A DNA stretch of 64,000 bases from assembly GCF_054482595.1 (NCBI RefSeq), contig NZ_CM137008.1; one strand, 5' to 3'. Below are positions 23,776 through 39,476 of the stretch, in pieces. Made by a program: the position numbers and the translations under genes. Under the pieces are notes generated by a model. That model did no database searches. It was given only the letters and a program-made list of their open reading frames with translations, and was not told where the DNA came from. Position 1 is the stretch's first letter, and every line of letters starts with the position of its first letter.

Positions 23776-24705
23776 TTGAACAGCAGAAAATTTGCGAGCA
23801 TGATCGCAATTATTTCACTGCCAGGGATATCAATGGCTTCCAGTAAATCGCTACAGCAGGCAATTGCCAATATAAAAATCTGGCATAAGGGTGAACAGCG
23901 CGCACCGCATAAACCATTGTTATTGCTATACGTATTAGCGGGATACCTGAATGGACATCCACGCCTTTTCGATTATGGATCGGAAATCTACGAACCTCTG
24001 CACAGTTTACTGGAACGTTTTGGGCCACAGCGTTCACAGTACCGACCTGATATGCCGTTCTGGCGATTACAAGGCGACGGATTCTGGCAATTACACAATG
24101 CCGAGCTTTGCTCAACAGCAGGGAGCAGCCGACAACCGCCAGTGAAGGAACTGAACGAATACCACGTTGCAGGCGGTTTCGATGAACAGCACTACGCCTT
24201 GGTAACCGGCAATAAAAAACTCATCAATACTCTGGCGCAACAGATACTCGAAGCGCACTTCACCGAGAGTATTCAGGAAGAAATTGCTGACGAGCTGGGT
24301 TTTGATCTCCAGCAAATCCGTAAACAGTGCGACCCGTTATTTCGCAAAAATGTATTACGCGCTTATAAATACCAGTGCGCGATATGTGGCTTTAATATGC
24401 GCCACGACGACACCACCGTCGCGCTGGAAGCGGCGCATATAAAATGGAAACAGCACGGCGGTCCTTGTGAAATTCCTAATGGCCTGGCGCTTTGCGCAAT
24501 TCACCATAAAGCCTTTGATAAAGGATCGATTGGCCTGGACGAAAATATGCGGGTACTGGTATCAGATGCGGTAAACGGCGGAGGGATCGTTGAGAGATTA
24601 TTCTGGGATTTTGACGGGAAAACTATTGCGTTGCCGCAGGTGCGTAAAAATTACCCTTATGAGGTGTTTGTAGAGTGGCATCGGAAAGAGGTTTTTAGGG
24701 GGTGA
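23776..24705 (+). CDS. HNH-family endonuclease with an N-terminal domain of unknown function
   Basis: C-terminal motif YKYQCAICGFNMRHDDTTVALEAAHIKWKQHGGPCEIPNGLALCAIHHKAFDKG has the C-x2-C ... H ... N ... C-x2-H-H arrangement of HNH nucleases; the N-terminal ~190 aa has no domain I can assign; the true start may be the internal MASSK Met. Confidence 0.6.
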   Translation: MNSRKFASMIAIISLPGISMASSKSLQQAIANIKIWHKGEQRAPHKPLLLLYVLAGYLNGHPRLFDYGSEIYEPLHSLLERFGPQRSQYRPDMPFWRLQGDGFWQLHNAELCSTAGSSRQPPVKELNEYHVAGGFDEQHYALVTGNKKLINTLAQQILEAHFTESIQEEIADELGFDLQQIRKQCDPLFRKNVLRAYKYQCAICGFNMRHDDTTVALEAAHIKWKQHGGPCEIPNGLALCAIHHKAFDKGSIGLDENMRVLVSDAVNGGGIVERLFWDFDGKTIALPQVRKNYPYEVFVEWHRKEVFRG

Positions 24706-25017
24706 GGTAGCCATTATATATCTTTCACCTAGGATTTTAAATGTAATAGATAAAGTATTTTCTGACACCGAAAGTAGTATTTATGAGTACATAGCCACAA
24801 ATCAATTTTAAAATCTCAATATAAAATACGTTTACAAATATTCTAGTCAGAGTAAATATATATTCATTATAAGAGAATCCAATTATTAACCAATCGAAAT
24901 TACAAATTAAAAAACAATTGGCATGTTGAATTGTACACTAATTTATATACATAGTAAATTTACATCTATTCATGATATAATTATCGTGATATCAATTCAT
25001 TAATCAGGAAAATCATA

Positions 25018-25320
25018 ATGGAATTGTTAAATACTTATGATGATAAAGAAACAGCTGAAATATTTTTTGAAAAAATAGACGGAGAGAAAAGATTAGCAAG
25101 TGAGAGAGATGCTACAGAAACAGTCTATAACCTCTTCGGGCAACCAACATGGAAAAACTTTTATCTTCTTGATATGTTTAACCTAAAAGAGTTACAAGGG
25201 ATTATAGAGTGTAGAAAAAATGGACAGCCGTTCGACCAGGAACGACACAGGGAAATAATAAAAATGCTTGAATATGCAGCAAAATCGTTTGACCTAATTA
25301 TTCCTGCACATTGGCGATAA
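25018..25320 (+). CDS. Small hypothetical protein (100 aa), acidic
   Basis: ORF preceded by a good RBS (caggaaaatcataATG); very AT-rich; no recognisable motif. Confidence 0.35.
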   Translation: MELLNTYDDKETAEIFFEKIDGEKRLASERDATETVYNLFGQPTWKNFYLLDMFNLKELQGIIECRKNGQPFDQERHREIIKMLEYAAKSFDLIIPAHWR

Positions 25321-25323
25321 TAT

Positions 25324-25354
25324 CTGTTCCATATCTCACAGAGATATGGAACAG
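25324..25354. terminator. Bidirectional hairpin between the small ORF and the convergent 3-gene operon
   Basis: ctgttccatatct (25324-25336), 5-nt loop, agatatggaacag (25342-25354) is a perfect 13-bp stem, flanked by AT-rich sequence, lying between two convergent stop codons. Confidence 0.5.
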
Positions 25355-25366
25355 AATCATAATTAT

Positions 25367-28300
25367 TTACTCGCTAACCATCTTACTGAATAACTTCTCC
25401 AGATAAACGGGGCCTGTATCCTCAATAAAAAGCACATTTCTGGCTTCCAGATTTTCTTTTGAGTCAGGTACGTTTACTAAGTCAACATAACAAGTTTCAG
25501 AAACAATAAATGCACTTAATGATAAGTTATCATCCGATAATTTATGTTCAAGATTCTTAATTTCTTTATATAATCCGAACTTCGGATCATCAAGATTAAG
25601 ATTGCGAATGCCTTTTGGATCAATAAGACTTAGCCATTGTTTACCACTTTTATCATCGACTAACCACAATAAGAAATCCGGATAAAAATTACCCGCAGTA
25701 GCAAAGCCCAGGCCTTTATTTTTAGAATCCGCATTTCTTAGCAGATATAAACTTTTATCACCAATAATTTTCTGCCCTTTTGTCGAATCAACAAAAGACT
25801 GAAGATCCTGAACAAAAGTAATCTCGCTTGGCGCACCAAGTGCTGCCGGTCGCATTTTTAGCGGTATATTGGCATTTTTTTCAATCGAAAGAAGCGGGTA
25901 ATAGAGATGTTTATCAAAGGTAATAGCAACCATCCCGGATGCACTCCAGGATTTTGCTTTACCGATTTCGCCGTCGATGACCAATTGTTGTAATTGTTCC
26001 AGCCGACTGGCATAAGCCAACCCATCATCAGTTTCTTCGATCTCGAAATGGTACATTTTGATCATACCAGGATCATCTTCTTTCACCTGCGTGACTTCAT
26101 AAAACTGACCTTCATAAGCATTTTTCAAGGTGTTGTAAAAGCGATCAGTATAATCAGTCAGCAGACGAAGCATAATATCTTCCTGCTTAGCAATATCTGC
26201 ATATTGCTTAATCTCAAGCTCTGAAGCTGGAATCAAAAGGGTATACCAACTATTTCCGATCTTTGTCTTACCGGTACAAAAGTCGATCAAACGTTGTTTA
26301 TCCACACGTAAATTTGACCAGCCGCGTTGTAGTTTATAATTCTGAATGGCGAGATAAAGCCGATCAAAATCAAATGCACTAATGATTTTATAATCTAACT
26401 TCGCTTCATTGCGCACGTTAACCGGAGTATTGTCCCCTTTTCTGCTGGTATCAATCGACTCAAGTTTCGGGTATAAGTCCAGCTTAATATGCGGCTGCTT
26501 AATTTTCCCCTGAAAATCAGCAGGAACTTCATACAATTCAGGAAAATAGACACGTTTAAAGCCGAGTCTTTGATTATCTTTATAACCATCTTTAAGCTTA
26601 AGTGTTTTAAGCCTGGTTGCTGGCATATTTGGCCGAGTTTCAAAATTCAGCTCAAGGATCTCGTCACTTGGCGTAATCCCTTCATCTTCCAGGTATTGTT
26701 TAAAGGTTGCCATGTAATCGGCACGTACACCGAATACATTCAGTGTCTCTAATTTTTCCAGATGCAACCCTTTCGGACGCTCACCGGGTGTACTGCGTTT
26801 CAAAGAATAATTGCGACCTTTAAGGCGTACGCCACGACCAAATAACTGAATGATCTGTGAACCTTCTCCACGGCCCATATTGAGCAATCCCATCGTTGAG
26901 ACGCGCCAACTGCTCCAGCCTTCAGTAAATTTTCGCGAGCCGATCAAAATATGTAGTCGCGAGTCTTTGTCATTTAACGTATGAAAGAGTGACTTTGCAA
27001 AATCATCTCTCTGATAATCAAATGTCGTATCCTCTTCACACATTTTGTAAAGAGACGGTGCATCACCAATATTGATAAGGCCAAACGGTTCGGCCTCACC
27101 AACCTGTAATGCCAGTTCACCTTTACTGCCTATTAAATTCAGAACTCGCAGTCGCTGACCAGAGTGAGTGGTGTTAAACAAGCGAGAAAGAATATCTGCG
27201 TAGATATCTTCCGGAGCGTTCATTAGTGCAGTAAAGCGATTTTCAAAAATGTTACGCTCTTTGGTATCGAGGATTCGCGCTTTATTTTTAATGAGATCGT
27301 TAATCCACGCTTTTGCCTGCGTTTCGTGGTTTAAAAACCATGCTAAAAAACGCAATACTGCGTGAATGTCTGAATCTTCACCACTTACCGTATTACCGAC
27401 AAAAACCCACAGCGGTTTTTCGATATTAAATTCACTTAATTTTTCTTTATTCTTATTGAATAAATATTGTTGCTGATAAAAGCTGAGCAAACACGCGGTA
27501 AAATACTCATACCGACGCTCATCTTTTTTATCCTCTTCAGGATTAAGGTTAAGAATCAGTGATTCTTTACCATAACCATCCTCATAGAAGAATTTATAGG
27601 AGTAATCGAACAGAATCGATTTTCCATAGACCTCTCGCGTCGCCTGAATACGCGCATCTCGTTTTTCTTCGCTGGTTAATGCTATTTGCGCTAACTCTTC
27701 TTCGTTCAGTTTACCTAAGGCCGTTGTTTCAAAAAGCAGCTTTGCTTTTTTCTTCTGAATTTCTGTTTCAACTGCCTCAACATTATTGCCACCGGCTACT
27801 GCCTGGCCAAAAGTTGCTGAATATTCAAACGCAAATCCGTCACGTGTTAATTTGTCACGACGGCGCATCCAGGCACCAGCAGCACTTCCGGTGCCTTTAT
27901 GCCCTTCATCAATCAGAACCAGATTGTTGCCTTCAAATGCCTCAACGGCAACAGTTTTGTCACCCATTTCATCGGCAAGTTTATTGATATCAATAACTTC
28001 AATCGTGCCTTTGAAGGGCGCAGATTTACTCTTATCGAATAACTGGTATTGGGTAAATCCTGAGTTTTCCAGCTCATCTAAATGTTGCTTCGACAGGCGT
28101 TCATCCGGAGTAAGCAGGATGATTTTGTCGGGGTAATGGTGGGTATTACCGTTCTGGAAATAATGTAAGTATTGCAAAATATTGACATGCAATAGCAGTG
28201 TCTTACCAGAACCAGTAGCATTCCAGTATGCCAGTTTATTCAAATCATCCAGAATATATGATTTGAACTGATTAGCCCGGTCTTTTGCTGTTTTATCATT

Positions 28301-28747
28301 TTCAGCATTGTATGCTGCCAGCTCGTTATTTAGCCCATCGAGTAATTGCTGTTTACGATTGAAGTACCAGTCCAGGTAGATCTCGGTAAACAAAAGCGAC
28401 AAGTACTGAAAATATTTCATGTTCAGCACAGTGTCTTCTTTGCGATTACGGTGCTCAGTTATCTGCTGCCAGTGCTGCACGATATTGAGATCGTAACGAC
28501 GCAGTTCATCGAGATCGATAAGATCGACCTCGAATAAATAGTTACTCAGCTCATGGAAGAACAAACTTTGGCCATCCTCATGGATGCCTTCAAAGCGATC
28601 TTCACCTAACCGATTCTTCAGACCTTGCAATGTGCCATCTTTAAAAAAATGGAACATAAAGCGGTTCAAAACCAGTTGCTTATGAAAGCTCAGTTTGCTG
28701 TTTGTCTCTTTTTTAACAGCTTTACCGGTGGTCGGTTTTTTAGCCAT
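25367..28747 (-). CDS. SF2 helicase with C-terminal PD-(D/E)xK-like motif (Type III Res-like), third gene of the operon
   Basis: 1126 aa; Walker A NATGSGKT (~aa 177-183), DExH-like VLIDEGHKG (~aa 278-286), SAT-type motif III (YSATFG), motif VI-like QLFGRGVRL, and near the C-terminus YPDFLLWLVDDKSGKQWLSLIDPKG, which fits a PD-(D/E)xK nuclease signature; start overlaps the upstream gene's stop. Confidence 0.65.
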   Translation of the reverse strand: MAKKPTTGKAVKKETNSKLSFHKQLVLNRFMFHFFKDGTLQGLKNRLGEDRFEGIHEDGQSLFFHELSNYLFEVDLIDLDELRRYDLNIVQHWQQITEHRNRKEDTVLNMKYFQYLSLLFTEIYLDWYFNRKQQLLDGLNNELAAYNAENDKTAKDRANQFKSYILDDLNKLAYWNATGSGKTLLLHVNILQYLHYFQNGNTHHYPDKIILLTPDERLSKQHLDELENSGFTQYQLFDKSKSAPFKGTIEVIDINKLADEMGDKTVAVEAFEGNNLVLIDEGHKGTGSAAGAWMRRRDKLTRDGFAFEYSATFGQAVAGGNNVEAVETEIQKKKAKLLFETTALGKLNEEELAQIALTSEEKRDARIQATREVYGKSILFDYSYKFFYEDGYGKESLILNLNPEEDKKDERRYEYFTACLLSFYQQQYLFNKNKEKLSEFNIEKPLWVFVGNTVSGEDSDIHAVLRFLAWFLNHETQAKAWINDLIKNKARILDTKERNIFENRFTALMNAPEDIYADILSRLFNTTHSGQRLRVLNLIGSKGELALQVGEAEPFGLINIGDAPSLYKMCEEDTTFDYQRDDFAKSLFHTLNDKDSRLHILIGSRKFTEGWSSWRVSTMGLLNMGRGEGSQIIQLFGRGVRLKGRNYSLKRSTPGERPKGLHLEKLETLNVFGVRADYMATFKQYLEDEGITPSDEILELNFETRPNMPATRLKTLKLKDGYKDNQRLGFKRVYFPELYEVPADFQGKIKQPHIKLDLYPKLESIDTSRKGDNTPVNVRNEAKLDYKIISAFDFDRLYLAIQNYKLQRGWSNLRVDKQRLIDFCTGKTKIGNSWYTLLIPASELEIKQYADIAKQEDIMLRLLTDYTDRFYNTLKNAYEGQFYEVTQVKEDDPGMIKMYHFEIEETDDGLAYASRLEQLQQLVIDGEIGKAKSWSASGMVAITFDKHLYYPLLSIEKNANIPLKMRPAALGAPSEITFVQDLQSFVDSTKGQKIIGDKSLYLLRNADSKNKGLGFATAGNFYPDFLLWLVDDKSGKQWLSLIDPKGIRNLNLDDPKFGLYKEIKNLEHKLSDDNLSLSAFIVSETCYVDLVNVPDSKENLEARNVLFIEDTGPVYLEKLFSKMVSE

Positions 28748-28749
28748 TC

Positions 28750-31700
28750 TTAAACCTCCTCCGCAAACATCAGGTTCAAGAATTCAGGTTCGATCTGGCG
28801 GATTTTCAGGCTACGAACAATCTCGCCGTCTTCTTCATCAACGGTAAAGGCGGTAGGCAAGTTATGATCGCCATTGATATAGATAACGTCATACGTGTTT
28901 TCTTTTGCATACAAATCAAATCGGTTAGCATATTTATTCAATTCTTCATAACCGATCTTGTCGCAATCGCGCCACAGAATAAGGGTACGCTCGCCTGTTG
29001 GCAGCGTACCTTCAACACGCACATAGCCACGTTCGATATTGGATTCGATGGATTTCACATGTAATCCAATGAGATAGTTGAAAGTTTCAACTAAATCGAT
29101 GTTTTTACGCTCAGTGGCACCGGCGGAATCCGTCGCAATATCCATTTCGTAGTTAAATGGTTTTTTGAAATTATCGATTCCGAGAAAAGAATCTTTACTC
29201 TCATTTTTAATGAGATAATTTAATAGATAATCATTCCTCACATCTGAAGGCAATGTTTCGAAAAGATCTATGGGAGATTTTTTCAGTACTATATTATTTA
29301 AGCAATCTTCATAGCTTTCTAGTTTAATTGTTTTAAGAATATGTGATATACCGTTTTTATCCTGTGGATAACCTTTATTCCACTTATCGCTATAAACGGC
29401 TTTTACAATTCTAGCTTTTATAACTGAATCAGAATGTTCTCCCATTTCAACTAATATATATTTATGATCTTCAGATTTTTCTCTATTTCTATTAATAACA
29501 GCATGTGCGGTGGTTCCACTGCCGCCAAAAAGATCGACTATGGTTTCATTATTAGCACTATGCCATACTGAATCAATAACGCGTTCCATAGTACCTAAGG
29601 ATTTTGGATAAGAAAACAAACCTGCAGAGCCAAACATGGACGTTAATAAATTTGTGCCACCTATGGTAGCATTATATTGTGATCCTTGCCAAATACTAGG
29701 AAGCAGTAACCTTCTTGCGCTATCATGATATAATCTGTTTATGACAAATTTGTTTGAACTTACCAATTCACCTACTTCAATTGCTTTTTTAGCCCCTTCA
29801 TAAGAAAGCGACCAAACTCTTTCTTCCCCATTCTCACCAATGGGATAGACTCTTTTTAAACCTTCTTTGGTTTCACCTACCGGATAATTACCTTTTTCTA
29901 AAGGAACAGGTGGTGGTTCGACTCCTTTAACTTCAAATGTATCAGGGTCAACCAAAACTGCAAAAAAGCTTTCTGGACGACCAGGATTACCAATCCTAAA
30001 ATTATTATCTCCGGTACCAGCTCTTCTAAAACCTCTAGTTCGAATTCCATCCTCCACACTATCCCCTTTGAGAATATCCATTCCTTCTGGTATAGAAAAC
30101 AGACAATATTCATGTGTTCTCGAAACATTTGTTCTACCTGTCCCAGACCCAGGATAGTGCTCAACGATACATTGTAAAACCTCTCTTTCTGGATTGATAC
30201 TTTTTTCCAATTCTTTTAAAAGAGACATTTCTGTATCATCAATAGCATAACAAAAAACACCGTTATTATTTAATAGTTTTTTAGATAAAATGATTCTATC
30301 AGCCATTAATGTAGCCCATGAAGAATCCTTATATCCATTTTTATATAAGATAGGAGTTGCATCAGTATTATATGGTGGATCAAGATATATTATGCTTGTA
30401 CTTTTATCAAACTTAGTCTCAAGGATTTTTAGGGCTTGATAATTTTCAGAGTTGACCAATAGCCCATTAATCTCATTATCAATATTATCAATTGATCGAA
30501 TCAGTTCACATTTAAATTTAGAATCAAAAAAAGTAGTATCAACCATCAGATATGGTGAACTCTTGAGAAATTTCATATCCCGAGAGTTATGCTGTTGAAA
30601 TAGACCTAGCGTACTCCAATGTTTAAATTGTTTATCATTTACTAATATAGTTTGATAAAGAGCATCTGGAATTCTATCTAAAGTAATACAGTATTCCGTA
30701 GAAACAACAAACTTCTTCTTAGTCCAAAGTTTTTTCTGGAAATTCTCAATTTGTGCCAAAAATGTAATGAGTTCCAGTGCAACAGTACGCAAACATTGAA
30801 TCATGCGCAATTGTTTCTCAATATTGGCAAACACTTCTGCATTTTGCACATTATCGAGATTCATTACTTCATTTTTAATATAAAAATCCAGTTCGTTCGT
30901 TAAAAAACCACCGAGATCTTTATGGATAAAGTAGTCTGCTGTATTACGCTGGGTATAAGTTGTAAGGTGACGCTCCAACTCTGTACGTGACGGATTTTTT
31001 TCTGTTGGCGCACGTTTAGCAAGATCAACCCAATGCTGTTGAACTGTTTTATCTGCCAGAATTGTTGAAATAGCGGACTGTACTAAAGCATCCTGCTTAG
31101 TGCCCTTTTTCATTGCCTTATATTCGAAGTGAATAACTAACTCTTCTGTTTCAACGAGTTTACCGTCCACCACAGATGAGTTTTTCACCACTTCTACTGG
31201 CTTATATTCTTGTTCATACTCATCACCTTCTTCATCAATTTTGGTACGAACATGTGGCTCAATAAGTACAAAGCAGCGATCTAATTCATTATCCTTACGG
31301 TTATCTTTTGCTGTGTCCGCTGCGAGCAATTTAAAGCTAACTTTACGACCATCATCTAATTTAAATGAATAATTAGCAAAGTTTTCGCCACTTTTAATGT
31401 AGTACTGGTCCTTATTTGCCCAGTGCAACATCACTTCTTCGCCAGAATAAGGGATGGCGTAGGTATTACCTTTATAACGGCGTTTGCTGATAAAATCGCC
31501 GTTGTCATAATAACGAGAAAAGAAAGTGAGCAGATGGGAAAATACTGCATTTTCATGCTCATTTGCTCCGGATGCCATAGCCGCCAGTTGCTTTTTAAGC
31601 TCCTGTACTTTCGGGCTATCAGCAGGGTCCACACCCGCATCAGTTGCCGCTTTTATTGTCAGTTGCAACTGATGTTCTAATTCTGATTTATTGGCATTTC

Positions 31701-31884
31701 CTGCATCCGCCAGCGCAGACTGGATTTTGGCCTTCAGCTTATTATCCAGATAGTCGTTAATTTCATCAGCACGTGCATTTAAAATACGATAAATACCGAA
31801 ATCCAGTTCTGGTCGATCAATCTGAAAAATTTCTTTTAGCTTCTTAACTAATTCGTTGTACTTACTCATTATTTTCTCTTTCAA
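28750..31884 (-). CDS. Beta-class DNA amino-methyltransferase (N6-adenine or N4-cytosine; Type III Mod-like) with ~480-aa N-terminal extension
   Basis: 1044 aa; catalytic motif IV IIYLDPPYNT (~aa 498-507) lies before the AdoMet motif I DLFGGSGTTAHAV (~aa 784-796), the circular permutation of beta-class MTases; the N-terminal ~480 aa is unassigned. Confidence 0.7.
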   Translation of the reverse strand: MKEKIMSKYNELVKKLKEIFQIDRPELDFGIYRILNARADEINDYLDNKLKAKIQSALADAGNANKSELEHQLQLTIKAATDAGVDPADSPKVQELKKQLAAMASGANEHENAVFSHLLTFFSRYYDNGDFISKRRYKGNTYAIPYSGEEVMLHWANKDQYYIKSGENFANYSFKLDDGRKVSFKLLAADTAKDNRKDNELDRCFVLIEPHVRTKIDEEGDEYEQEYKPVEVVKNSSVVDGKLVETEELVIHFEYKAMKKGTKQDALVQSAISTILADKTVQQHWVDLAKRAPTEKNPSRTELERHLTTYTQRNTADYFIHKDLGGFLTNELDFYIKNEVMNLDNVQNAEVFANIEKQLRMIQCLRTVALELITFLAQIENFQKKLWTKKKFVVSTEYCITLDRIPDALYQTILVNDKQFKHWSTLGLFQQHNSRDMKFLKSSPYLMVDTTFFDSKFKCELIRSIDNIDNEINGLLVNSENYQALKILETKFDKSTSIIYLDPPYNTDATPILYKNGYKDSSWATLMADRIILSKKLLNNNGVFCYAIDDTEMSLLKELEKSINPEREVLQCIVEHYPGSGTGRTNVSRTHEYCLFSIPEGMDILKGDSVEDGIRTRGFRRAGTGDNNFRIGNPGRPESFFAVLVDPDTFEVKGVEPPPVPLEKGNYPVGETKEGLKRVYPIGENGEERVWSLSYEGAKKAIEVGELVSSNKFVINRLYHDSARRLLLPSIWQGSQYNATIGGTNLLTSMFGSAGLFSYPKSLGTMERVIDSVWHSANNETIVDLFGGSGTTAHAVINRNREKSEDHKYILVEMGEHSDSVIKARIVKAVYSDKWNKGYPQDKNGISHILKTIKLESYEDCLNNIVLKKSPIDLFETLPSDVRNDYLLNYLIKNESKDSFLGIDNFKKPFNYEMDIATDSAGATERKNIDLVETFNYLIGLHVKSIESNIERGYVRVEGTLPTGERTLILWRDCDKIGYEELNKYANRFDLYAKENTYDVIYINGDHNLPTAFTVDEEDGEIVRSLKIRQIEPEFLNLMFAEEV

Positions 31885-31889
31885 ATCAA

Positions 31890-34781
31890 TTAAATAACTT
31901 TCCAGCGGATGGAAAAAAGCTCGGTGATATCCGTTTTTTGCTTCATCCGCTCTTCAAGGGCACTGATGAGTTCATCCCGCTTGTCGGCGATCTCATCTTC
32001 AATGTCAAAAATTTCCATACGTTGGCGCTTCTGCTGCCGCTCCAGTAGCTTCAGCTTTTCCTGGTTTTGCTTTTGTTCTTCGATCGATTGTGCCAGTCTG
32101 GCTTCTCGCTTCAACGACTTGATTTGCATTTTGGTATCGCGTAATGCTTCTTCCGCCGCAAAGATCATGTCTTCAGCCCATTTTTCCAGCTTATCTCTTT
32201 CCGCTTCAAAAAGGACATTGTTCTGCTCCAAAACTTCCGCAAGCCTGGCGTCAATTTGCCTGTTCTTGAGTAAGATCAAGTCATCAGGTAATGCATCTAA
32301 ACTTGCCGAATTATCCAGCTTTTCGTTGGTTATTGCAGACAAGTTGAACAGACGTTTACAAGCCTCACCATCTACCACACGGCCGCTGTCAGTTTTCGCG
32401 GTAAAGACTAAAAATTGCTGCCGGTTAAACGCATCAACAGTAAGCAAATTTAGTGTTAACCACCCTGATAGCCCTTTCAGCTGCTCAGCCACCGAGACTT
32501 TCGTTGTGTGGTTACTGTAATCGAAGATGACTTCAGCTGTTTTCGTCTCCTGGGCTTTGGCTCCCTCAATGACGTACTCACCCAGCGGATGATTGATCCG
32601 ATATGCAAAACTGTGGTGATCCTGCATTTGTAACGCACTATTTTGCCTGCCATCTTTGCGCAACAGCTGATACTGCCCCACAGGCAGTTCATTGACTGAC
32701 TCACGTAAAGTAAAACGATGATGCTCATGATCAAAATCAGCATATTGTTTGAGCTGCTGACAGGTAACGGCCCAAAACCAACGACCGACTTTATCCAGAC
32801 GCTCCCGAGCTTCATCAAGCCTTATTTTAAGGATATCGTGAATATCTTCATCAAAATGCTCAAGCAACTGTTCCTGCGTCTTCTGCATCTTGAGATTGAT
32901 TTCATCTTCCAGCTCTTTCTGCAACCTTTCAAAAGCCAGCTCTATCTCCTCGGGGGTACGGCATGACTCATAAATTGACTGGATCCTTTTTTCAAAATCC
33001 ACTCCATTTTCTATGCTGCCAAGCACACTATCCGATGCACCAAACACGCCATCAAACAGGCTGAACTTTTCAGTTAAGAGTTCAAGAACTCGTTGATCGG
33101 CCTGGTTTCGCTGATTGAGGAAGTTAATAACAACCACATCAAACTTTTGCCCGTATCGGTGACAACGCCCAATACGCTGTTCAATGCGTTGTGGATTCCA
33201 GGGTAAATCGTAATTGATCAGTAGCGAACAAAATTGCAGGTTCACCCCTTCAGCTGCAGCTTCTGTAGCTATCATGATTTCAGCATGATCTTTGAAGTGG
33301 TCGATCAAAGCCGAGCGTTTATCAATTTGCGCCGACCCGGTAATACGAGAAGATCCCTGATATTCCTCGCGCCATTGCTGGTAGATCTTGTTTGCCTGCG
33401 GTGTATTGTTTGTGCCACTAAAGGTTACTACTTTCCCCTGGTAGCCATTGTTTTCCAGAAAATGTGCAAGATACTGTTGAGTTCGCATTGACTCCGTGAA
33501 GATGATGACTTTTTTTGCAGCCCCCATTTCGGCAAGCTGTGCAAAACCTTGCTCCAGGCCAGAAAGCAACTCTTTTGATTTGGTATCAGTGCCAATCTGT
33601 TCTGCTTTGACAATGAGTGATTCCAGCTCATTGATTTCTGCCTGAAGCGCGTCTGAATCGACAACTTTGCACTCGGTATCTAAAGCCACTGATTCGGCAT
33701 CTTCCACGATGTCATCTTCAAGATCGTCATCCATTATGATCTGTTGGATGATGTTCATATCATCTTCAACGATACCTTCCAGCTTTAACCTTTCTAAACG
33801 ACTCTTAAGGATCTGCAAGTTATTCAATACAGCTTTCGTACTTGAGGAAAGTAGCTTTCTGAGAATAAGCCCCGTCAGATGCCGGTGTCGTTTTGGTAAG
33901 GCATAGCTATCCTCACGTTCAAGCAATTTTTGTACGCGTTCATAAAGATCCTGCTCCTGTTCGCTCGGATAGAAAGGAATAGTGATCGCTTTACGTTCTG
34001 TATACTTGATGTACTCCAGCACATTCTTGCGTAAAGTTCGTTTGATAAAACGCGACAATCGCCCCTTCAACTCCGCAATATCGCTATCTGCCTGCATATA
34101 TTGCTTTCTGAACGCTTTAACTTCGCCGAAGGTATGTTCATCTATAAGCGTCGACATGCCATACAGTTCCATTAACGAATTCTGTAAAGGCGTTGCGGTC
34201 AGTAGTAATTTTTTCCGCCCATCAAGCGCACGCTTTAACGCTTGCCCCATTTTGTTACTTTCTCGATGAGCATTACGCAGTTTATGGGCTTCGTCGATAA
34301 CAACCAGATCCCACATTTCAGCCACCAATTTTTCTTCTAACCGAGCAGCATAGTGGTATGACATGATAGTGATCGATTTATTATTTAAGGGATTATGGAT
34401 CCCTTCTTTTTGAAGCTGGCTATACGTTTTCGCGTCCAACACCTGAGAAGGTAGATTGAACTTTTCCTGTAACTCGCTCGCCCATTGGCGACGCAGTGAA
34501 GCAGGACAAATGATCAACAGTTTACGTTTTCTTTCAGCCCACAACTGGCAAAGCACTAACCCCGCTTCAATGGTTTTACCTAAACCAACTTCATCGGCAA
34601 GCACAACACCTTTGCTTAGCGGATTTTCAATAGCAAAAAGAGCCGCCTCAATTTGATGAGGATTTAGATCTACGCTTGCATCAAACAGCGATTGAGACAG
34701 ACGGTCCACCCCATTGTTTGAATGGAGAATGGAAAGTTCATGCGCAAAATATTTCGCATGATAAGGTGTTGTACCAATCAT
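31890..34781 (-). CDS. SNF2/RAD54-family helicase, first gene of the operon
   Basis: 963 aa; motif I LADEVGLGKT (~aa 61-70), motif II VVIDEAHKLRN (~aa 160-170), motif III LLLTATPLQN, motif VI QRIGRCHRYGQK; long charged coiled-coil C-terminus. Confidence 0.75.
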   Translation of the reverse strand: MIGTTPYHAKYFAHELSILHSNNGVDRLSQSLFDASVDLNPHQIEAALFAIENPLSKGVVLADEVGLGKTIEAGLVLCQLWAERKRKLLIICPASLRRQWASELQEKFNLPSQVLDAKTYSQLQKEGIHNPLNNKSITIMSYHYAARLEEKLVAEMWDLVVIDEAHKLRNAHRESNKMGQALKRALDGRKKLLLTATPLQNSLMELYGMSTLIDEHTFGEVKAFRKQYMQADSDIAELKGRLSRFIKRTLRKNVLEYIKYTERKAITIPFYPSEQEQDLYERVQKLLEREDSYALPKRHRHLTGLILRKLLSSSTKAVLNNLQILKSRLERLKLEGIVEDDMNIIQQIIMDDDLEDDIVEDAESVALDTECKVVDSDALQAEINELESLIVKAEQIGTDTKSKELLSGLEQGFAQLAEMGAAKKVIIFTESMRTQQYLAHFLENNGYQGKVVTFSGTNNTPQANKIYQQWREEYQGSSRITGSAQIDKRSALIDHFKDHAEIMIATEAAAEGVNLQFCSLLINYDLPWNPQRIEQRIGRCHRYGQKFDVVVINFLNQRNQADQRVLELLTEKFSLFDGVFGASDSVLGSIENGVDFEKRIQSIYESCRTPEEIELAFERLQKELEDEINLKMQKTQEQLLEHFDEDIHDILKIRLDEARERLDKVGRWFWAVTCQQLKQYADFDHEHHRFTLRESVNELPVGQYQLLRKDGRQNSALQMQDHHSFAYRINHPLGEYVIEGAKAQETKTAEVIFDYSNHTTKVSVAEQLKGLSGWLTLNLLTVDAFNRQQFLVFTAKTDSGRVVDGEACKRLFNLSAITNEKLDNSASLDALPDDLILLKNRQIDARLAEVLEQNNVLFEAERDKLEKWAEDMIFAAEEALRDTKMQIKSLKREARLAQSIEEQKQNQEKLKLLERQQKRQRMEIFDIEDEIADKRDELISALEERMKQKTDITELFSIRWKVI

Positions 34782-35193: not shown

Positions 35194-35881
35194 ATGTGAC
35201 TTAACCTCATGATTTAAAATTGTTAATAATAAACAATATCATCTTATACCAACACAGATACCAACACGAAAAATCACTGGTTTTCGGCATCGAACCAGGA
35301 CAATCAGCTCCTGATTGAGATACCGAGCTCTGTTACTCGTCATCTTCCTCGACAGGCTTCATTGCATCAAGTAGTACTCGCACCATCGCGATAGAACCAA
35401 TCCGGATAAAAGCATCTTCTCCATCTATATCTGTTAACTGATATCGCTCACTTGATGCCGGATAAGTGTGTCGATTTGCAGCTGTGTACTCTTTTGTACA
35501 GCCAGAATGTGGCTGACTGAGGTGGAGCAGATAATGTCCCCGTTGACCACTTCCGGACGGGAGGCTGTGATTTCAGACATAATTGATATTCCTTTTTGCA
35601 GATAAATGAAAACGCCAGCCCTGTTCAGGCTGGCGTCAGTGGAATGAAGTATGGTGAGTAATATTTATCGGTTCTGGTGCAGAAGCTGCAGTTGGCGCAG
35701 GGTACGGATACCCTCCCTGGCCTGTTCGATACAGGGCAACAGTGCTGCCGAATCCGTTTTATCCTCATCGTTGTCAAAGATAATTCCCGATTCGCAGTCG
35801 ATATTGTCCTGCAGCCACACAATCAGAATATCCAGCGCCGTTTCTGTGGTTAATGATTTCATCCTGTGTCTTTTGTCCTGG

Positions 35882-36370
35882 TTACCAGTTGAAAGTGGGT
35901 AAATCCTGCAGACATTCAGCACCGGCATCCAGATGAATGAGACTGACGCCATAACGCCGGATGAGTGTGACAACCAGACGGCGGAACGTTCTGGACAGCC
36001 CCAGGCGTTTAAGCCGCAGAACCGGGTATGACCACGCATCGGTACGTAACAGATATCCGCTACCTGTGAAATGAATCCATTCTGATTCGCCGGTGTCATT
36101 CGTCTGATTTGACAGCGAGTACAACCAGGCATTGTCCGTTTCCGTGATATGTGCGGTACTGCAGCGTATGCCGGTAAGGGCCGCAGATGGTGGCGTGCGC
36201 TCTGCTGATGTCCGGTCAGATTCATCAACAACACGAAGGGAGTAACCGTTATCGCAGACCACGTTAATCAGTTCAGCGAGAGTAACACCATCGACGTCAA
36301 CGACAATGCGCCCCATGTTCAGTGCCTGCACGTTAATGCTGTCGGCTTCCAGCGTCAGGGCCAGTTTCAT
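35882..36370 (-). CDS. YeeW-like protein (follows CbtA toxin gene)
   Basis: Position immediately after the cbtA-like gene, overlapping its 3' end, as yeeW does in CP4-44; no domain assignment. Confidence 0.45.
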
Positions 36371-36741
36371 TGTTTCGCCCACGGATGTTTACCCAGGGTA
36401 ATGTTATTTACCGTTCTGTAATTGTCGCGGGCCATCAGGCCGGTTGCCCGGCGGGCCCGGAGGATATCAATACTGTTTATTAACTGAGAACGAGTACAGA
36501 CGCTGAATCCCGGCTGGTCGGTACGCACCAGTGCGTATTTTTCAACGAGAAAGTTCACCGCATCACACAGTGAAATGCCTGCCTCAATATGCTGCTCAAT
36601 CACACGTTCATCAGCGAACGGTGTGTCATTCAGTGTGAGGCCGTAATGCTGGTCCAGCAGTCGGGTGAGCAGTGTCTGCCAGATGGTGACGGGAGACTGG
36701 CAATGCGATGCCTCCCGTACGTGTGTATCGGGTAATGTGTT
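36367..36741 (-). CDS. CbtA/YeeV-family toxin (cytoskeleton-binding toxin)
   Basis: [121 protein letters not shown] matches the CbtA/YkfI/YpjF family; start placed at MNTLP. Confidence 0.8.
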
Positions 36742-36833
36742 CATACTGAAGATTTTCCTGATATGCAGAGATGAAAAATGGAAAAGTGGCGTGGTGAAAG
36801 CACCAGGCCGGAGAAGAAGGTTATTCTGGAGAG

Positions 36834-37202
36834 TTACTTTTTCGTTTCGGGCGTCGGATAAACAGCCATATAAACGTAGCCACAACTGCCGAGGGTGTCG
36901 GCTTCGCAGGTCAGCCTTTTTGCATACAGCGTGACGGTATGCTGATGGCGGGGATTCAGTTCACCGCTGGTGAGCATGAGTTCCAGTTGTTTCATCAGCA
37001 GCGGAAAGGCCTGGTCCAGATGGTACGCATCCGCGTCGCTGAACCGGCCTCTGATACCGGCGCGGTCTGCAAGGTAATGCAACCGGTTACCCTCCTGCAC
37101 CAGACGTGCCCCAAAACAGGGCGTCACGGTGCAGGGCAGTCCCCACCAGGTGCGGTCGTTATTGTCGTCGGGAAGCGTTGTCCCGGGGAGTGTGTCTGAC
37201 AC
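36834..37202 (-). CDS. CbeA/YeeU-family antitoxin
   Basis: 122-aa ORF directly upstream of the toxin gene; [23 protein letters not shown]... matches the YeeU/YfjZ family. Confidence 0.8.
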
Positions 37203-37281
37203 GATAAAATCCTCACAGAAAATTGGTTAAGAATGGTCCGGTGGTGGCGATAATTCTGCTCTTCTGAATGCCCTTCCAGAC

Positions 37282-37503
37282 TCAGTTCAGGGTGACGCTC
37301 ATCAGCCGGACATACGGACCAAAACTGTCCTTACGGCGTTCTGCAAACACAGCCAGCACACCGGGAATATCCTGTACTTCACGGCCGGTATATGTATCCG
37401 TGCTACCGTGCCAGCGGTATTTACCGGTACAGAACGGAAAAAGACGGGATGCAGGATGCTGACGGTGAATACGCATGGCTTCACCACGGGTGATGATTTT
37501 CAT
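37282..37503 (-). CDS. YeeT-like protein (DUF987)
   Basis: 73-aa ORF in the position of yeeT between the radC-like and antitoxin genes. Confidence 0.55.
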   Translation of the reverse strand: MKIITRGEAMRIHRQHPASRLFPFCTGKYRWHGSTDTYTGREVQDIPGVLAVFAERRKDSFGPYVRLMSVTLN

Positions 37504-37589
37504 GAGAATAGTCCTCCTGAATGTGAAAGTAAGAAACAGCTGAGAAAGAGAAACTGAAGTGATATGAAGGTGATTGTGACGGTGACGGG

Positions 37590-38066
37590 TTAAAGCAGAC
37601 CGTGTTCGGCAAAGGAGAATACCTGGCTGCCACCGACTATCAGATGGTCCGGCACCCGGATATCCACCAGGGCCAGCGCCTGTACCAGACGTTCAGTGAT
37701 AAGCCGGTCTGCCTTACTGGGGGTGACTTCACCGGACGGGTGATTGTGCGCCAGCACCACGGCAGCGGCATTGTGGTACAGGGCACGTTTAATCACCTCC
37801 CGGGGATGGACTTCTGTGCGGTTGATGGTGCCTGTGAAGAGGGTTTCACCCGCAATCAGCTGATTCTGGTTGTTCAGATACAGCACCCGGAACTCTTCCC
37901 GCTCCAGTCCTGCCATGTTCAGAATCAGCCATTCCCGTGCCGCATGCGTGGAGGTGAAGGCCACGCCGGGTTCATGAAGATGGCGGTCCAGGGTTTTCAG
38001 GGCCCGCTGAATGAGGCTGCGCTCGCCGGGCGTCATCTCTCCGGGCAGAAAGGAAAGCTGTTGCAT
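37590..38066 (-). CDS. RadC-like JAB/MPN-domain protein (YeeS/YfjY family)
   Basis: 158 aa with the JAMM-type motif VVLAHNHPSGEVTPSKAD. Confidence 0.8.
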   Translation of the reverse strand: MQQLSFLPGEMTPGERSLIQRALKTLDRHLHEPGVAFTSTHAAREWLILNMAGLEREEFRVLYLNNQNQLIAGETLFTGTINRTEVHPREVIKRALYHNAAAVVLAHNHPSGEVTPSKADRLITERLVQALALVDIRVPDHLIVGGSQVFSFAEHGLL

Positions 38067-38080
38067 TGTTCCGGCCCCTT

Positions 38081-38569
38081 TCAGTCAATGATGCGCATAA
38101 TGGCGTTGCATTCCGGATGTTGCAGGGCGTAATCCCGCAACCGATAATAATGGACCGTCATGGCATAACACTCCGTACGACAGGCATGATGACTGTACGT
38201 CATCAGACAGGCAGCAATGCCGGCGGCTTCCGGGCTCATTTCAGCGCGGTTACCGTTCATGGCATTGAACAGTACCCAGGTTTCTCCATCATCTTCATCC
38301 GGTTCGGGCGCCATAAATGCGCCGCCGTTATTCAGGGTGTACAGATTCCAGATACCACCGCAGTAGTCTTCACACAGACGGTCCATCCAGCCGAAGACAC
38401 GGGGCTCCAGGGTCACCCACTGTGGAATGAGGCCAAAGTGCTGCGGCCAGAAGCTGATGCGCTGTTCATCAGGGACGGGAGTGGCAACCAGTTGAGACTG
38501 GTTATTCCCTGATGCAGTAGTTACGGAAACAGAAGGTGTGGTGGAATTATGCGAAGAGGTTGTCATGAG
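38081..38569 (-). CDS. Antirestriction protein, ArdB/KlcA family (YfjX-like)
   Basis: ~160-aa protein in the conserved position upstream of radC in CP4-type elements; family assignment from memory of YfjX/KlcA. Confidence 0.55.
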   Translation of the reverse strand, partial: LMTTSSHNSTTPSVSVTTASGNNQSQLVATPVPDEQRISFWPQHFGLIPQWVTLEPRVFGWMDRLCEDYCGGIWNLYTLNNGGAFMAPEPDEDDGETWVLFNAMNGNRAEMSPEAAGIAACLMTYSHHACRTECYAMTVHYYRLRDYALQHPECNAIMRIID

Positions 38570-38657
38570 ATTATTCCTTATAAAAAGCAAATGAATGGAA
38601 GAATGCCTGGGGACTGGTACAGACGTGAGTCAGGGCTGCACTTTCAGGGAAACAGCA

Positions 38658-39476
38658 TCAGCGCATGCTCTCCAGCAGCGTTTCTGCCATCACCCACAAT
38701 GCGCGGTTGAGCTTAATATCGGTGTCGATGCTGTGAATGGCACGGGTGTGGATACGTTTTCCTCTGGCACTGCGACCGGAAATTCCGCCTTTCAGCATAT
38801 TCTCCTGGATGGTCTGATAAGCACTCCACAGGTCCTTACCGTAATCCTCCCGGCGTCGTGGTGTCAGAATGTCGGCAGTGGTGACTGGCTGATGTTTGTC
38901 ACCATAACGGTAAGTCAGTGCCGCCTGTGCCAGCGCCTGGCGTGCCGGTGGCGGCAGGACCAGCGACTGCATGGCATCACGCTTCTCCTCTATCCGGTCA
39001 AAAACCCCCACCACCTCGTAAGCCCCTTCAATAACTTTCTCCACCACATTTCCCCGGTGCGGAACACGCACTTCCCCCAGAGACTGACCACAGACGCATC
39101 CGTTCTGGCAGACGAACCTGAAGTAACCCGGCAGCATCTGGTAGCTGGAGGTACCGTCATGAGAGTTGAGCAGAATAATTTCAGGGACATGTTCTCCGTT
39201 TATCTCTCCGGCCCGCCGCAGACGCAGCATATGTTTGGTGTATCCCCGGCGGCCCGGGTCGCGCACACGGGTCTGGCAGGCGAAGAACGGCTGAAAGCCT
39301 TCCCGCTGCAGACTTTCCAGCACGGTGATGGTGGGGATATACGTATAGCGTTCACTGCGGGAGGTATGCCGGTCTTCCCCAAAAATACCGGGTACATAGT
39401 GCATCAGTTCTTCGTGTGTCAGCGGACGGTCACGGCGTATCTGATTCGCATAACCAAAACGACTGGCTAATTGCAT
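38658..39476 (-). CDS. DUF932-family protein (YfjQ/YafZ-like)
   Basis: 272-aa ORF; position and size match the DUF932 gene of CP4-type islands. Confidence 0.5.
   Translation of the reverse strand: MQLASRFGYANQIRRDRPLTHEELMHYVPGIFGEDRHTSRSERYTYIPTITVLESLQREGFQPFFACQTRVRDPGRRGYTKHMLRLRRAGEINGEHVPEIILLNSHDGTSSYQMLPGYFRFVCQNGCVCGQSLGEVRVPHRGNVVEKVIEGAYEVVGVFDRIEEKRDAMQSLVLPPPARQALAQAALTYRYGDKHQPVTTADILTPRRREDYGKDLWSAYQTIQENMLKGGISGRSARGKRIHTRAIHSIDTDIKLNRALWVMAETLLESMR

What the first reader, a model, noticed from the sequence alone, without database searches (positions are those of the whole stretch)
25018..25320. Small acidic ORF with a strong RBS between the HNH gene and the operon
This 100-aa ORF has a canonical Shine-Dalgarno sequence and is followed by a perfect 13-bp hairpin shared with the convergent operon. 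Small proteins embedded in defence islands are sometimes regulators or accessory factors, but it has no detectable motif and I cannot assert that it is expressed.
Basis: seen in the sequence. Interest (0 to 1): 0.35.

Follow-up and report, generated by a model that had tools for sequence, protein, structure and literature searches.

The report
Small gene flanking swappable restriction-type defence modules
The 100-codon ORF is a real, strongly conserved gene for a small protein of unknown fold that, in about 70 species of Gammaproteobacteria, sits tail-to-tail against the end of whichever DNA-methyltransferase-based anti-phage system is carried there, so it marks (and may serve) a place where such systems are exchanged.

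Summary
ORF 25018-25320 (+) encodes 100 aa (pI 5.0). It has an AGGA Shine-Dalgarno 8 nt upstream and an extended -10-like TGATATAAT 36 nt upstream. A perfect 15-bp (not 13-bp) hairpin fills the 46-nt gap to the convergent operon.

It is a real gene. About 115 protein clusters of ~100 aa exist, from 73 loci in about 70 species, with dN/dS about 0.1. No Pfam, NCBIfam, PADLOC or PHROG family matches. The AlphaFold model is confident (pLDDT 96.5) but has no PDB or viral structural neighbour.

The main new result is context. In 56 of 67 species loci the next gene converges on it (median gap 35 nt). A DNA methyltransferase lies within 10 kb downstream in 52 of 62 loci, against 6 of 52 upstream. The cargo varies: SNF2 + type III-like R-M (as here), BREX types 1 and 3, DUF499/DUF1156 (Hma), McrBC+MTase, and type II and III R-M. 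Upstream neighbours are heterogeneous. Nucleotide similarity between loci often stops within 0-6 nt of its stop codon.

It is tied neither to the HNH gene nor to this particular operon. My best reading is a generic companion and junction gene of methylation-based defence modules. Its biochemical role is unknown. Interest is moderate.

The parts
24973..24981 (+). Extended -10-like promoter element TGATATAAT. The TATAAT hexamer (24976-24981) ends 36 nt before the ATG. It overlaps the scan's TTTACA-17-TATCGT candidate at 24959-24987.
   Evidence: Read from the sequence and the promoter scan. A -10-like box lies at a similar distance in Pseudomonas homologues. Not tested experimentally.
25006..25009 (+). 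Shine-Dalgarno core AGGA, 8 nt before the ATG. A moderate match, not a full consensus.
   Evidence: Many homologues lack an obvious SD.
25018..25320 (+). ORF100: gene for a 100-aa, mildly acidic cytoplasmic protein of an undescribed family. Predicted secondary-structure order is beta-alpha-beta-beta followed by three helices. Conserved motifs are GEKRLASERD..T..YNLFGQPTW.NFY and C-terminal IP.HW.
25323..25355 (.). Perfect 15-bp inverted repeat with a 3-nt loop in the 46-nt gap between the convergent stop codons. Probably a bidirectional terminator-like hairpin.
   Evidence: Analogous but unrelated hairpins occur in other loci with gaps of about 29 nt or more; about 20 loci have gaps too short for one.
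25367..28747 (-). Last gene of the linked cargo: type III restriction-enzyme-like DEAD/ResIII helicase-nuclease (1126 aa). Its 3' end faces ORF100.
   Evidence: PADLOC REase_III over the full length at 2326 bits; Pfam ResIII/DEAD. In E. coli it is present in 190 genomes, against 192 with full-length ORF100.
28750..31884 (-). Type III-like N6/N4 DNA methyltransferase (1044 aa). The central segment 29176-30703 is replaced in another E. coli allele.
31890..34781 (-). SNF2-family helicase (963 aa, DrmD-like but below the NCBIfam cut-off). First gene of the operon.

Best explanation
SHOWN. ORF100 is a genuine protein-coding gene under purifying selection, belonging to a narrow and previously undescribed family in Gammaproteobacteria. 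It appears to be its own transcription unit: promoter-like elements lie 30-40 nt upstream, the downstream neighbour is convergent, and here a 15-bp hairpin separates the two. Across species its one constant partner is the 3' end of a DNA-methyltransferase-based defence module, usually tail-to-tail with a gap of 0-60 nt. The kind of module changes: SNF2 + type III-like R-M as in this window, BREX 1, BREX 3, DUF499/DUF1156 'Hma', McrBC+MTase, type II, type III. The genes upstream of ORF100 also change. Similarity between loci breaks either right at its stop codon (same ORF100 and upstream, different cargo) or right at its start (same ORF100 and cargo, different upstream). ORF100 is therefore the hinge at which these modules are exchanged.

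INFERRED. Crossovers within this conserved 300-bp gene are the likely means of module swapping. The protein is most likely a module-generic accessory that acts through protein-protein contacts: it is acidic and has no HTH. It may tune or safeguard restriction-type modules, for example during establishment in a new host or in control of self-damage. It is unlikely to be a subunit of any one system. It is not needed for the systems as such. Some loci carry a pseudogenised ORF100 beside cargo that looks intact, and (from general knowledge, not tested here) BREX and R-M systems are far more widespread than this narrow family.
For: Real gene:
- 115 clusters, nearly all about 100 aa, at 50-70% identity across genera.
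- An exhaustive profile search finds only this compact family.
- 73 loci in distinct species.
- dN/dS is 0.08 between the E. coli alleles and 0.11 at the median.
- The AlphaFold model has pLDDT 96.5.

Coupling to cargo:
- The downstream neighbour is convergent in 56/67 loci (binomial p = 2e-8), with a median gap of 35 nt.
- An MTase lies downstream in 52/62 loci against upstream in 6/52 (Fisher p = 2e-15).

Linkage is to the cargo rather than to a backbone:
- Upstream neighbours outside recognisable backbones hit 88 different Pfam families with none dominant.
- Plasmid pYKAM101 has ORF100 facing XcyI/Pac25I R-M, and pYTSY4-VIM has it facing a BglII remnant, both without island genes.
- In this window the ORF100/cargo pair is inverted relative to the CP4-like backbone, compared with Pseudomonas and Aeromonas.
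- A divergent subfamily also sits next to an MmeI/Eco57I-type MTase plus ResIII helicase.

Hinge behaviour:
- L023/L035, L048/L052 and L047/L051 share 0.7-4.6 kb upstream and stop 1-21 nt before the stop codon, with different cargo.
- L060/L085, L023/L029, L069/L081 and L021/L030 share kilobases of cargo but fewer than 50 nt upstream.
- The ORF100 tree follows host taxonomy, with cargo types intermixed.

Own promoter.

Not phage-borne: 0 of 50,697 phage records.
Against: - No experiment or expression data were available; the biochemical role is pure inference.
- The cargo-independent phylogeny and the frequent position right after an integrase or a RadC-ended backbone block (about 24 of 70 loci) fit equally well a passive island 'framework' gene whose function has nothing to do with the cargo.
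- The family is rare: 115 clusters, and 7 of 72,556 plasmids. From general knowledge, BREX and R-M systems are much more abundant. It therefore cannot be a general requirement of these systems.
- ORF100 is pseudogenised in L073 and L087 although the BREX-3 ORFs look intact.
- My gene calls are a crude longest-ORF method. In GC-rich Pseudomonas it sometimes picked shadow ORFs (L068/L072), so the counts are approximate.
- The 10-kb flanks do not reach the far end of most cargo.
Confidence: 0.45

Rival explanations
1. Passive framework gene. ORF100 belongs to the backbone of a family of P4-integrase/CP4-like integrative islands and does something for the element itself. It merely borders the slot where cargo lands. 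The cargo is mostly R-M-like because those modules are what circulates in this slot.
For: - ORF100 directly follows the integrase in E. coli A29, Pantoea, Kosakonia, Shewanella and Colwellia, or ends the DUF932-YqaJ-Gp3-RadC block in Pseudomonas and Aeromonas.
- Its tree follows host taxonomy, not cargo type.
- Cargo swaps break exactly at its stop codon while kilobases upstream stay conserved.
- In E. coli A29 the slot also holds a Gabija-like ATPase+UvrD pair.
Against: - Only about a third of loci show a recognisable backbone upstream; the rest are heterogeneous.
- ORF100 occurs with type II R-M on plasmids that have no island genes.
- The ORF100/cargo pair keeps its tail-to-tail geometry even when inverted relative to the backbone, as in this window.
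- Many pairs share ORF100 plus cargo but not the upstream region.
- A distant subfamily is again next to an MTase-helicase module.
Confidence: 0.3
2. Establishment or anti-restriction factor. The protein helps a methyltransferase-carrying element survive entry into a new host. It could blunt the host's methylation-dependent (type IV) nucleases, or transiently restrain the incoming restriction activity or the damage response.
For: - The only common denominator of the cargo is a DNA methyltransferase.
- The protein is small, acidic and lacks a DNA-binding motif.
- It has its own promoter.
- In island backbones it follows genes typical of anti-restriction or leading regions: KlcA-like, RadC, DUF932.
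- Its phylogeny tracks the host, as expected if the target is a host protein.
Against: - There is no homology or fold similarity to any known anti-restriction protein.
- The charge is far from that of a DNA mimic.
- It is absent from phages and nearly absent from conjugative plasmids.
- In Klebsiella and E. coli A29 it lies directly upstream of McrBC-like genes.
- Nothing was tested.
Confidence: 0.12
3. DNA-binding transcriptional regulator of the neighbouring operon. A functional analogue of C proteins, BrxR or RptR, possibly combined with convergent-transcription interference on the restriction gene.
For: - Small regulators are the commonest kind of conserved single gene beside R-M and BREX loci (PMC9122601, PMC12255303).
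- The distant subfamily is divergently oriented from its MTase operon, a typical regulator layout.
- In about 20 loci the gap to the restriction gene is under 16 nt, so the 3' ends of the transcripts must overlap.
Against: - No HTH, RHH or WYL domain was found; the protein is acidic.
- It lies up to 10 kb from the operon promoter, where separate WYL regulators sit.
- No conserved operator-like motif was found beyond -10-like boxes.
- Strong hairpins between the genes, here and in Aeromonas, argue against read-through interference as a general mechanism.
Confidence: 0.1
4. Toxin, antitoxin or stand-alone mini defence gene that simply clusters in defence islands.
For: - In Aeromonas it occupies the slot after a CbeA-type antitoxin, where CbtA normally sits.
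- Its secondary-structure order superficially recalls Phd/YefM.
Against: - It is monocistronic almost everywhere.
- It has no PADLOC model.
- Its position is far too fixed for random clustering in an island.
- Pseudogenised copies sit beside cargo that looks intact.
Confidence: 0.03

Closest known systems
BrxR/CapW WYL-domain regulators (PMC9122601; bioRxiv 10.1101/2021.12.19.473356; PMC9122588)
   Same: A single conserved gene that co-localises with many different defence systems (BREX, type III-like R-M and others) in Gammaproteobacterial islands, independently of system type.
   Different: BrxR is about 290 aa with wHTH+WYL domains and sits at the 5' end as a repressor. ORF100 is 100 aa with no HTH or WYL domain and sits at the 3' end, convergent. 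Where visible, WYL genes are present separately at the other end of the same cargo.
RptR, the R-M-proximal small regulator of type I R-M/DarTG islands (PMC12255303)
   Same: [quoted passage not shown]
   Different: RptR is all-helical, heads the operon, binds TAGCTA repeats and is associated with type I R-M. ORF100 has a beta-alpha-beta-beta N-terminal half, shows no sequence match to any PDB chain, and was never seen next to type I R-M in my sample.
Controller (C) proteins of type II R-M systems (established knowledge)
   Same: A small protein genetically coupled to the restriction gene. It is a plausible analogy for timing or safeguarding restriction during establishment.
   Different: C proteins are Xre-type HTH dimers encoded upstream of, and co-transcribed with, the R gene. 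ORF100 has no HTH and is convergent and downstream.
Framework genes flanking cassette-like variable R-M or defence loci. Examples recalled from memory and not checked here: the E. coli immigration control region, P2/P4 hotspots, SXT ICE hotspot 5.
   Same: A conserved gene borders a slot whose defence content is swapped between strains, and similarity breaks at the gene boundary.
   Different: Those flanks are core or element-backbone genes with a fixed neighbour on the other side. ORF100's other side is itself variable, and the ORF100/cargo pair moves as a unit onto plasmids and in either orientation.
ArdA/Ocr/KlcA anti-restriction proteins of mobile elements (established knowledge)
   Same: Small acidic proteins on mobile elements, functionally connected with restriction systems.
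   Different: ORF100 shows no homology or fold match, only a mild negative charge (net -5), and is not found in phages or in plasmid leading regions.

Membership tests
Controller (C) proteins | Xre-type helix-turn-helix domain | tested here: not met
   No Pfam or NCBIfam hit. The predicted structure begins beta-alpha-beta-beta.
Controller (C) proteins | Encoded upstream of, and co-oriented with, the restriction gene | tested here: not met
   Convergent and downstream in 56/67 loci.
BrxR/CapW | wHTH + WYL (+WCX) domains, about 290 aa | tested here: not met
   100 aa with no WYL hit. A WYL profile built here hits other genes in the loci, not ORF100.
RptR | All-alpha dimeric fold, homology to the solved RptR structure, and association with type I R-M | tested here: not met
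ArdA/Ocr DNA-mimic anti-restriction proteins | Extreme negative surface charge mimicking DNA, plus homology to ArdA/Ocr | tested here: not met
   pI 5.03, net about -5, family median pI 5.75. No family hit. No viral structural neighbour.
ArdA/Ocr DNA-mimic anti-restriction proteins | Inhibits a restriction enzyme | not testable with these tools
   Needs an in vivo restriction assay.
Phd/YefM antitoxins | Sequence or profile similarity, and a co-transcribed toxin gene | tested here: not met
CbtA toxin of CbeA/CbtA type IV TA | Homology to CbtA and a position directly after cbeA | tested here: not met
   No Pfam hit. It follows cbeA only in Aeromonas. In this window cbtA and yeeU lie 10 kb away on the other side of the operon.
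Known anti-phage defence proteins (PADLOC-DB 2.0) | Match to any defence-system protein model | tested here: not met
   0 families.
Hotspot framework gene | Conserved gene bordering variable defence cargo, with similarity breaking at its edge | tested here: met
Hotspot framework gene | Stable neighbour (core or backbone) on the non-cargo side | tested here: inconclusive
   An integrase or RadC-ended backbone is present in about 24/70 loci. The rest are heterogeneous, with 88 Pfam families among 75 neighbours.

The most novel reading that the evidence does not exclude
ORF100 is a new kind of universal 'chaperone' for methyltransferase-based immunity on mobile DNA. It would be a small protein that lets any R-M, BREX or Hma-type module be moved safely between hosts, for example by neutralising resident methylation-dependent nucleases or by transiently restraining restriction and self-damage. 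Its conserved coding sequence would double as the recombination handle for swapping modules.
Probability: 0.15. Interest if true: 0.8.

Novelty: new variant of a known kind. Interest (0 to 1): 0.5.

Why it matters
Single genes that accompany many unrelated defence systems, such as BrxR and RptR, have turned out to be regulators that explain how toxic immunity is kept in check. ORF100 shows the same genomic behaviour but has an unrelated, apparently new fold and sits at the opposite end of the operons.

If the protein acts on the modules, it would point to a system-independent step in controlling or establishing methylation-based immunity.

Even if it is only a junction gene, it is useful in two ways. 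It is a compact 300-bp marker for finding R-M-like cargo, including cargo with no recognisable domains, such as the unannotated large ORFs beside it in some Pseudomonas loci. It is also a marker for tracing how such modules are exchanged by recombination between islands and plasmids.

Tried and rejected
- **Family searches** (Pfam, NCBIfam, PADLOC, PHROGs): nothing. PHROG hits at E of about 0.2 were ignored.
- **Exhaustive profile search of 1.8 billion representatives**: no distant annotated relatives and no fusions. Weak repeated hits to bulb-lectin-like proteins (P0187, P0189) match only the beta-hairpin motif and were judged spurious.
- **Phd/YefM resemblance** from secondary-structure order: rejected by hhalign.
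- **Rfam** on the region: nothing relevant.
- **Hairpin as a conserved recombination site or family feature**: rejected. Other loci have unrelated terminator-like hairpins or no room for one.
- **Conserved upstream non-coding element across genera**: none beyond close relatives. A k-mer search found only -10-like boxes.
- **SGI1 ORF S044 as a possible homologue** (a lead from the plasmid with res/intI1): rejected, because S044 is about 630 nt and unrelated in size and context.
- **WYL remnant upstream of the SNF2 gene in this window**: not detected by tblastn, although the plasmid copy has one.
- **E. coli K-12 yjhR as a remnant of this operon**: rejected. K-12 shares only nanS and about 250 nt of the HNH gene.
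- **Literature searches** for the RefSeq accessions or for a described small gene beside BREX, Hma or R-M found nothing.

Full report
**1. The observation**

The ORF is present exactly as described: ATG at 25018, TAA at 25318-25320, 100 codons. Nothing of 50 aa or more overlaps it on the other strand. The product has pI 5.03 and net charge about -5, so 'acidic' is correct but mild.

The ribosome-binding site is an AGGA core at 25006-25009 with an 8-nt spacer. That is adequate rather than strong.

Thirty-six nucleotides upstream of the ATG lies TGATATAAT (24973-24981), a perfect extended -10. It overlaps the scan's TTTACA-17-TATCGT candidate.

The hairpin is a perfect 15-bp stem (25323-25337 and 25341-25355) with a 3-nt loop. 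Its fold energy is -26.4 kcal/mol, with z = -7.2 against shuffles. It fills the 46-nt gap between the stop codon of the ORF and that of the convergent gene. It lacks a clean U-tract and was not called by the terminator scan.

**2. The surroundings**

The window is E. coli chromosome in the fim / nanCMS region, at the tip of a CP4-like island.

Upstream of the ORF lies a phosphorothioate-DNA-binding HNH restriction endonuclease gene (NCBIfam NF045808, 433 bits).

Downstream and convergent is an intact three-gene operon:
- an SNF2 helicase (DrmD-like, below the curated cut-off);
- a type III-like MTase;
- a type III-like REase/helicase, which matches the PADLOC model over its full length.

Beyond the operon lie DUF957, DUF5983, CbtA, YeeU, YeeT, YeeS, a KlcA-like anti-restriction gene, DUF932 and Ag43. 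All are co-directional with the operon.

**3. Is it a gene?**

Yes, on four grounds.
- The 5.8-billion-protein search returned 115 clusters. Nearly all are 100 aa, at 50-70% identity, in Aeromonas, Vibrio, Shewanella, Pseudoalteromonas, Klebsiella, Salmonella, Marinomonas, Pseudomonas and others. All are annotated 'hypothetical'.
- An exhaustive profile search of 1.8 billion representatives found only this compact family and its fragments, with no fusions and no annotated distant relatives.
- A scan of one genome per species gave 73 loci.
- dN/dS is 0.08 between the two E. coli alleles (dS about 0.2) and 0.11 at the median over 108 unsaturated pairs.

The alignment shows invariant Y7, S28, R30, Y37, L39, F40, W45, L51, L56, P96 and W99. 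It also shows the motifs GEKRLASERD, YNLFGQPTW and IP.HW.

AlphaFold2 gives pLDDT 96.5 and pTM 0.85. The predicted order is beta(2-7), alpha(10-19), beta(24-31), beta(34-41), then helices 45-50, 56-67 and 74-91.

Nothing similar turned up in the libraries I could search:
- Foldseek against PDB gave nothing.
- Foldseek against the viral BFVD library gave nothing.
- A PDB sequence search with the family profile gave nothing.
- No Pfam, NCBIfam, PADLOC or PHROG family matched.
- The AlphaFold database library was unavailable.

**4. Context across species: the main result**

I called ORFs in all loci, clustered the neighbours and annotated cluster representatives with Pfam.

In the species-level set the next gene downstream converges on ORF100 in 56 of 67 loci (binomial p = 2e-8). 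The median gap is 35 nt, and about 20 loci have gaps of 15 nt or less, or overlaps. A DNA methyltransferase lies within the 10 kb downstream in 52 of 62 loci, against 6 of 52 upstream (Fisher p = 2e-15).

Several of the ten 'misses' are artefacts or near-misses:
- shadow-ORF calls in GC-rich Pseudomonas (L068/L072 carry the same type III-like operon);
- PglZ-type cargo that runs off the flank (L045);
- an Hma-type operon lying upstream and co-directional (L061, L065).

The cargo differs from locus to locus.

| Cargo | Approx. no. of species | Source calls |
|---|---|---|
| SNF2 + type III MTase + type III REase-like, as in this window | about 13 | 44, 46-48 |
| A second variant of that architecture | about 6 | 44, 46-48 |
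| BREX type 3 (PglZ, BrxHII-like SNF2, N6_N4 MTase, BrxC) | about 11 | 18, 44, 46-48 |
| BREX type 1 (BrxL, PglZ, PglX) | 6 | 44, 46 |
| DUF499/DUF1156/SNF2 systems ('Hma', called 'BREX-related' in PMC12839542) | about 7-10 | 14, 15, 44 |
| McrBC-like + MTase | Klebsiella, E. coli A29 | 17, 34 |
| Classical type III R-M | 1 | 55 |
| Type II BglII-like and XcyI-like R-M | 3, plus two plasmids | 55, 56, 72, 73 |

The counts are my own approximate classification.

Extra gene pairs are sometimes embedded in the cargo: AAA_15+DUF4276, SMODS+S_4TM, and DprA + helicase-PRTase. Where the flank reaches the head of the cargo, a WYL (BrxR-type) gene is there.

**5. Backbone gene or cargo companion?**

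Evidence for a backbone role:
- ORF100 directly follows a P4-type integrase in about 9 loci. An example is E. coli A29: tRNA-Leu, integrase, ORF100, cargo.
- It ends a DUF932-YqaJ-Gp3-RadC block in about 15 loci.
- Its neighbour-joining tree follows host taxonomy, with cargo types intermixed.

Evidence for linkage to the cargo:
- The remaining upstream neighbours are heterogeneous. Seventy-five proteins hit 88 Pfam families with none dominant; they include gyrB, dUTPase, relaxases, IS elements and NERD-kinases.
- The ORF100/cargo pair appears on plasmids without island genes.
- In this window the pair is inverted relative to the CP4-like backbone, compared with Pseudomonas and Aeromonas.
- Two genomes carry two diverged copies, each beside its own module: P. 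delhiensis (L050, L068) and P. fluvialis (L048, L069).
- A divergent subfamily that lacks the KRLASERD motif again sits beside an MmeI/Eco57I-type MTase plus ResIII helicase, there head-to-head.

Pairwise blastn shows both kinds of breakpoint:
- Same ORF100 and kilobases upstream, with similarity ending 1-21 nt before its stop codon and different cargo beyond: L023/L035, L048/L052, L047/L051.
- Same ORF100 and kilobases of cargo, but fewer than 50 nt upstream: L060/L085, L023/L029, L069/L081, L021/L030.

ORF100 is thus a hinge at which either side is exchanged. That is what crossovers within a short conserved sequence shared by otherwise unrelated elements would produce. This mechanism is an inference, not something shown.

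**6. E. coli population**

ORF100 sequence is found in 375 of 5426 complete genomes, almost always at this locus. It is full length in 192 genomes. In 183 genomes only the first 123 nt match; the one such locus I examined (L016) is cut there by an IS66 insertion, and the operon is gone. The REase gene is present in 190 genomes.

A plasmid carries the partial HNH gene, ORF100, REase, MTase, SNF2 and a partial WYL gene between IS elements. K-12 has only nanS and a fragment of the HNH gene. No phage record encodes a homologue, and only 7 of 72,556 plasmids do.

**7. Transcription signals elsewhere**

In Pseudomonas loci a GGCAGAAT/TACAAT/TATAAT box lies 33-40 nt upstream of the ATG. The 8-mer GGCAGAAT occurs in 13 of 70 upstream regions, against 0.5 expected. 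It is preceded by a stem plus T7 element that looks like the terminator of the upstream unit. This supports an independent transcription unit.

Where the downstream gap allows (about 29 nt or more), hairpins unrelated in sequence occur. Elsewhere there is no room for one. The E. coli hairpin is therefore a local terminator-like feature, not a hallmark of the family.

**8. What it most likely does**

Shown: it is a real gene, it is stably coupled to the 3' end of methyltransferase-based modules, and it behaves as a hinge.

Inferred: the protein is acidic, shows no DNA-binding motif and has a highly conserved beta-hairpin surface. It probably works through protein contacts. The only shared property of its neighbours is methylation-based self/non-self discrimination with a potentially self-damaging effector as the last gene. 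The most economical functional guess is therefore a module-generic accessory that tunes or safeguards such modules, for example during establishment or in limiting self-damage.

It is not essential to the systems. The family is rare, and (from general knowledge, not tested here) BREX and R-M systems are far more widespread. ORF100 is also a pseudogene in L073 and L087 next to BREX-3 genes that look intact.

The main rival is that it is a passive framework gene whose function is unrelated to the cargo. I put about 0.45 on the accessory-plus-hinge reading, 0.30 on the passive-flank reading, and the rest on anti-restriction/establishment, DNA-binding regulator or TA-like roles.

**9. Comparison with known systems**

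In genomic behaviour it resembles BrxR/CapW (PMC9122601), RptR (PMC12255303) and C proteins: small or single genes that accompany restriction-type systems. It fails every membership test for them, having no HTH or WYL domain, a different fold, and the opposite end and orientation. It also resembles the framework genes that flank cassette-like variable R-M loci, but its non-cargo side is not stable.

I found no paper that describes it. A recent comprehensive BREX / BREX-related survey does not mention a small or convergent gene, using the terms I searched for. Accession searches also returned nothing.

**10. Verdict**

The reason is the unusually strict, system-independent synteny and the apparently new fold, not any property visible in this window alone. 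The function remains unknown and untested.

Noticed in passing
window 29176-30703: The central ~1.5 kb of the type III-like MTase gene has no nucleotide similarity to the otherwise ~96% identical allele in strain FORC_031 (L015). This is probably a swap of the target-recognition domain that changes specificity.
   Followed up: partly
L016 10001-12375 (E. coli AR435); window equivalent 25018-25140: In 183 of 375 E. coli genomes that carry ORF100 sequence, only its first 123 nt match. In the one such locus examined (L016), an IS66 element is inserted there and the whole SNF2-MTase-REase operon is missing.
   Followed up: partly
window 23776-24705: The phosphorothioate-DNA-binding HNH endonuclease gene is intact here. 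It is 5'-truncated in many strains (L015, L018), and only a ~250-nt fragment survives in K-12 next to nanS.
   Followed up: partly
window 18956-19861: An IS3-family transposase (rve, HTH_21) lies between the fim cluster and nanC.
   Followed up: no
window ~35600-43700, read from the matching stretch of strain F9792 (L092, L001): A CP4-like island backbone lies right of the operon, co-directional with it: DUF957, DUF5983, CbtA, YeeU, YeeT, YeeS/RadC, KlcA-like anti-restriction, DUF932, Ag43 and a YeeP-like GTPase. The gene identities were not checked on the window itself.
   Followed up: partly
L002-L005 13182-14923; L006 10291-12213; L044/L047/L048 (DprA + helicase-PRTase); L035/L046/L074 (AAA_15/DUF3696 + small ORF): Small two-gene systems are embedded inside the large methyltransferase operons: PARIS-like AAA_15+DUF4276, CBASS-like SMODS+S_4TM, and a DprA-like protein with a helicase-phosphoribosyltransferase.
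   Followed up: no
L068 1597-7922 / L072: My longest-ORF caller picked shadow ORFs on the wrong strand in GC-rich Pseudomonas loci, so two large 'no Pfam' ORFs are probably artefacts of the type III-like operon. Counts based on these calls are approximate.
   Followed up: partly
L097 2463-7590; L096: A divergent ORF100 subfamily (P0145, P0153; KRLASERD motif replaced) lies head-to-head with an MmeI/Eco57I-type MTase plus a ResIII/T5orf172 helicase. The region is rich in small genes and is possibly a prophage or plasmid.
   Followed up: partly
Pseudomonas loci, 33-90 nt upstream of ORF100 (alignment A4): A conserved stem plus T7 terminator-like element is followed by a GGCAGAAT box with no obvious -35. 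It is a possible atypical promoter.
   Followed up: partly
window ORF100 versus L015: The two E. coli ORF100 alleles differ at dS of about 0.2, much more than I would expect for E. coli core genes (from general knowledge, not measured here). This suggests the locus was imported more than once or has recombined.
   Followed up: no
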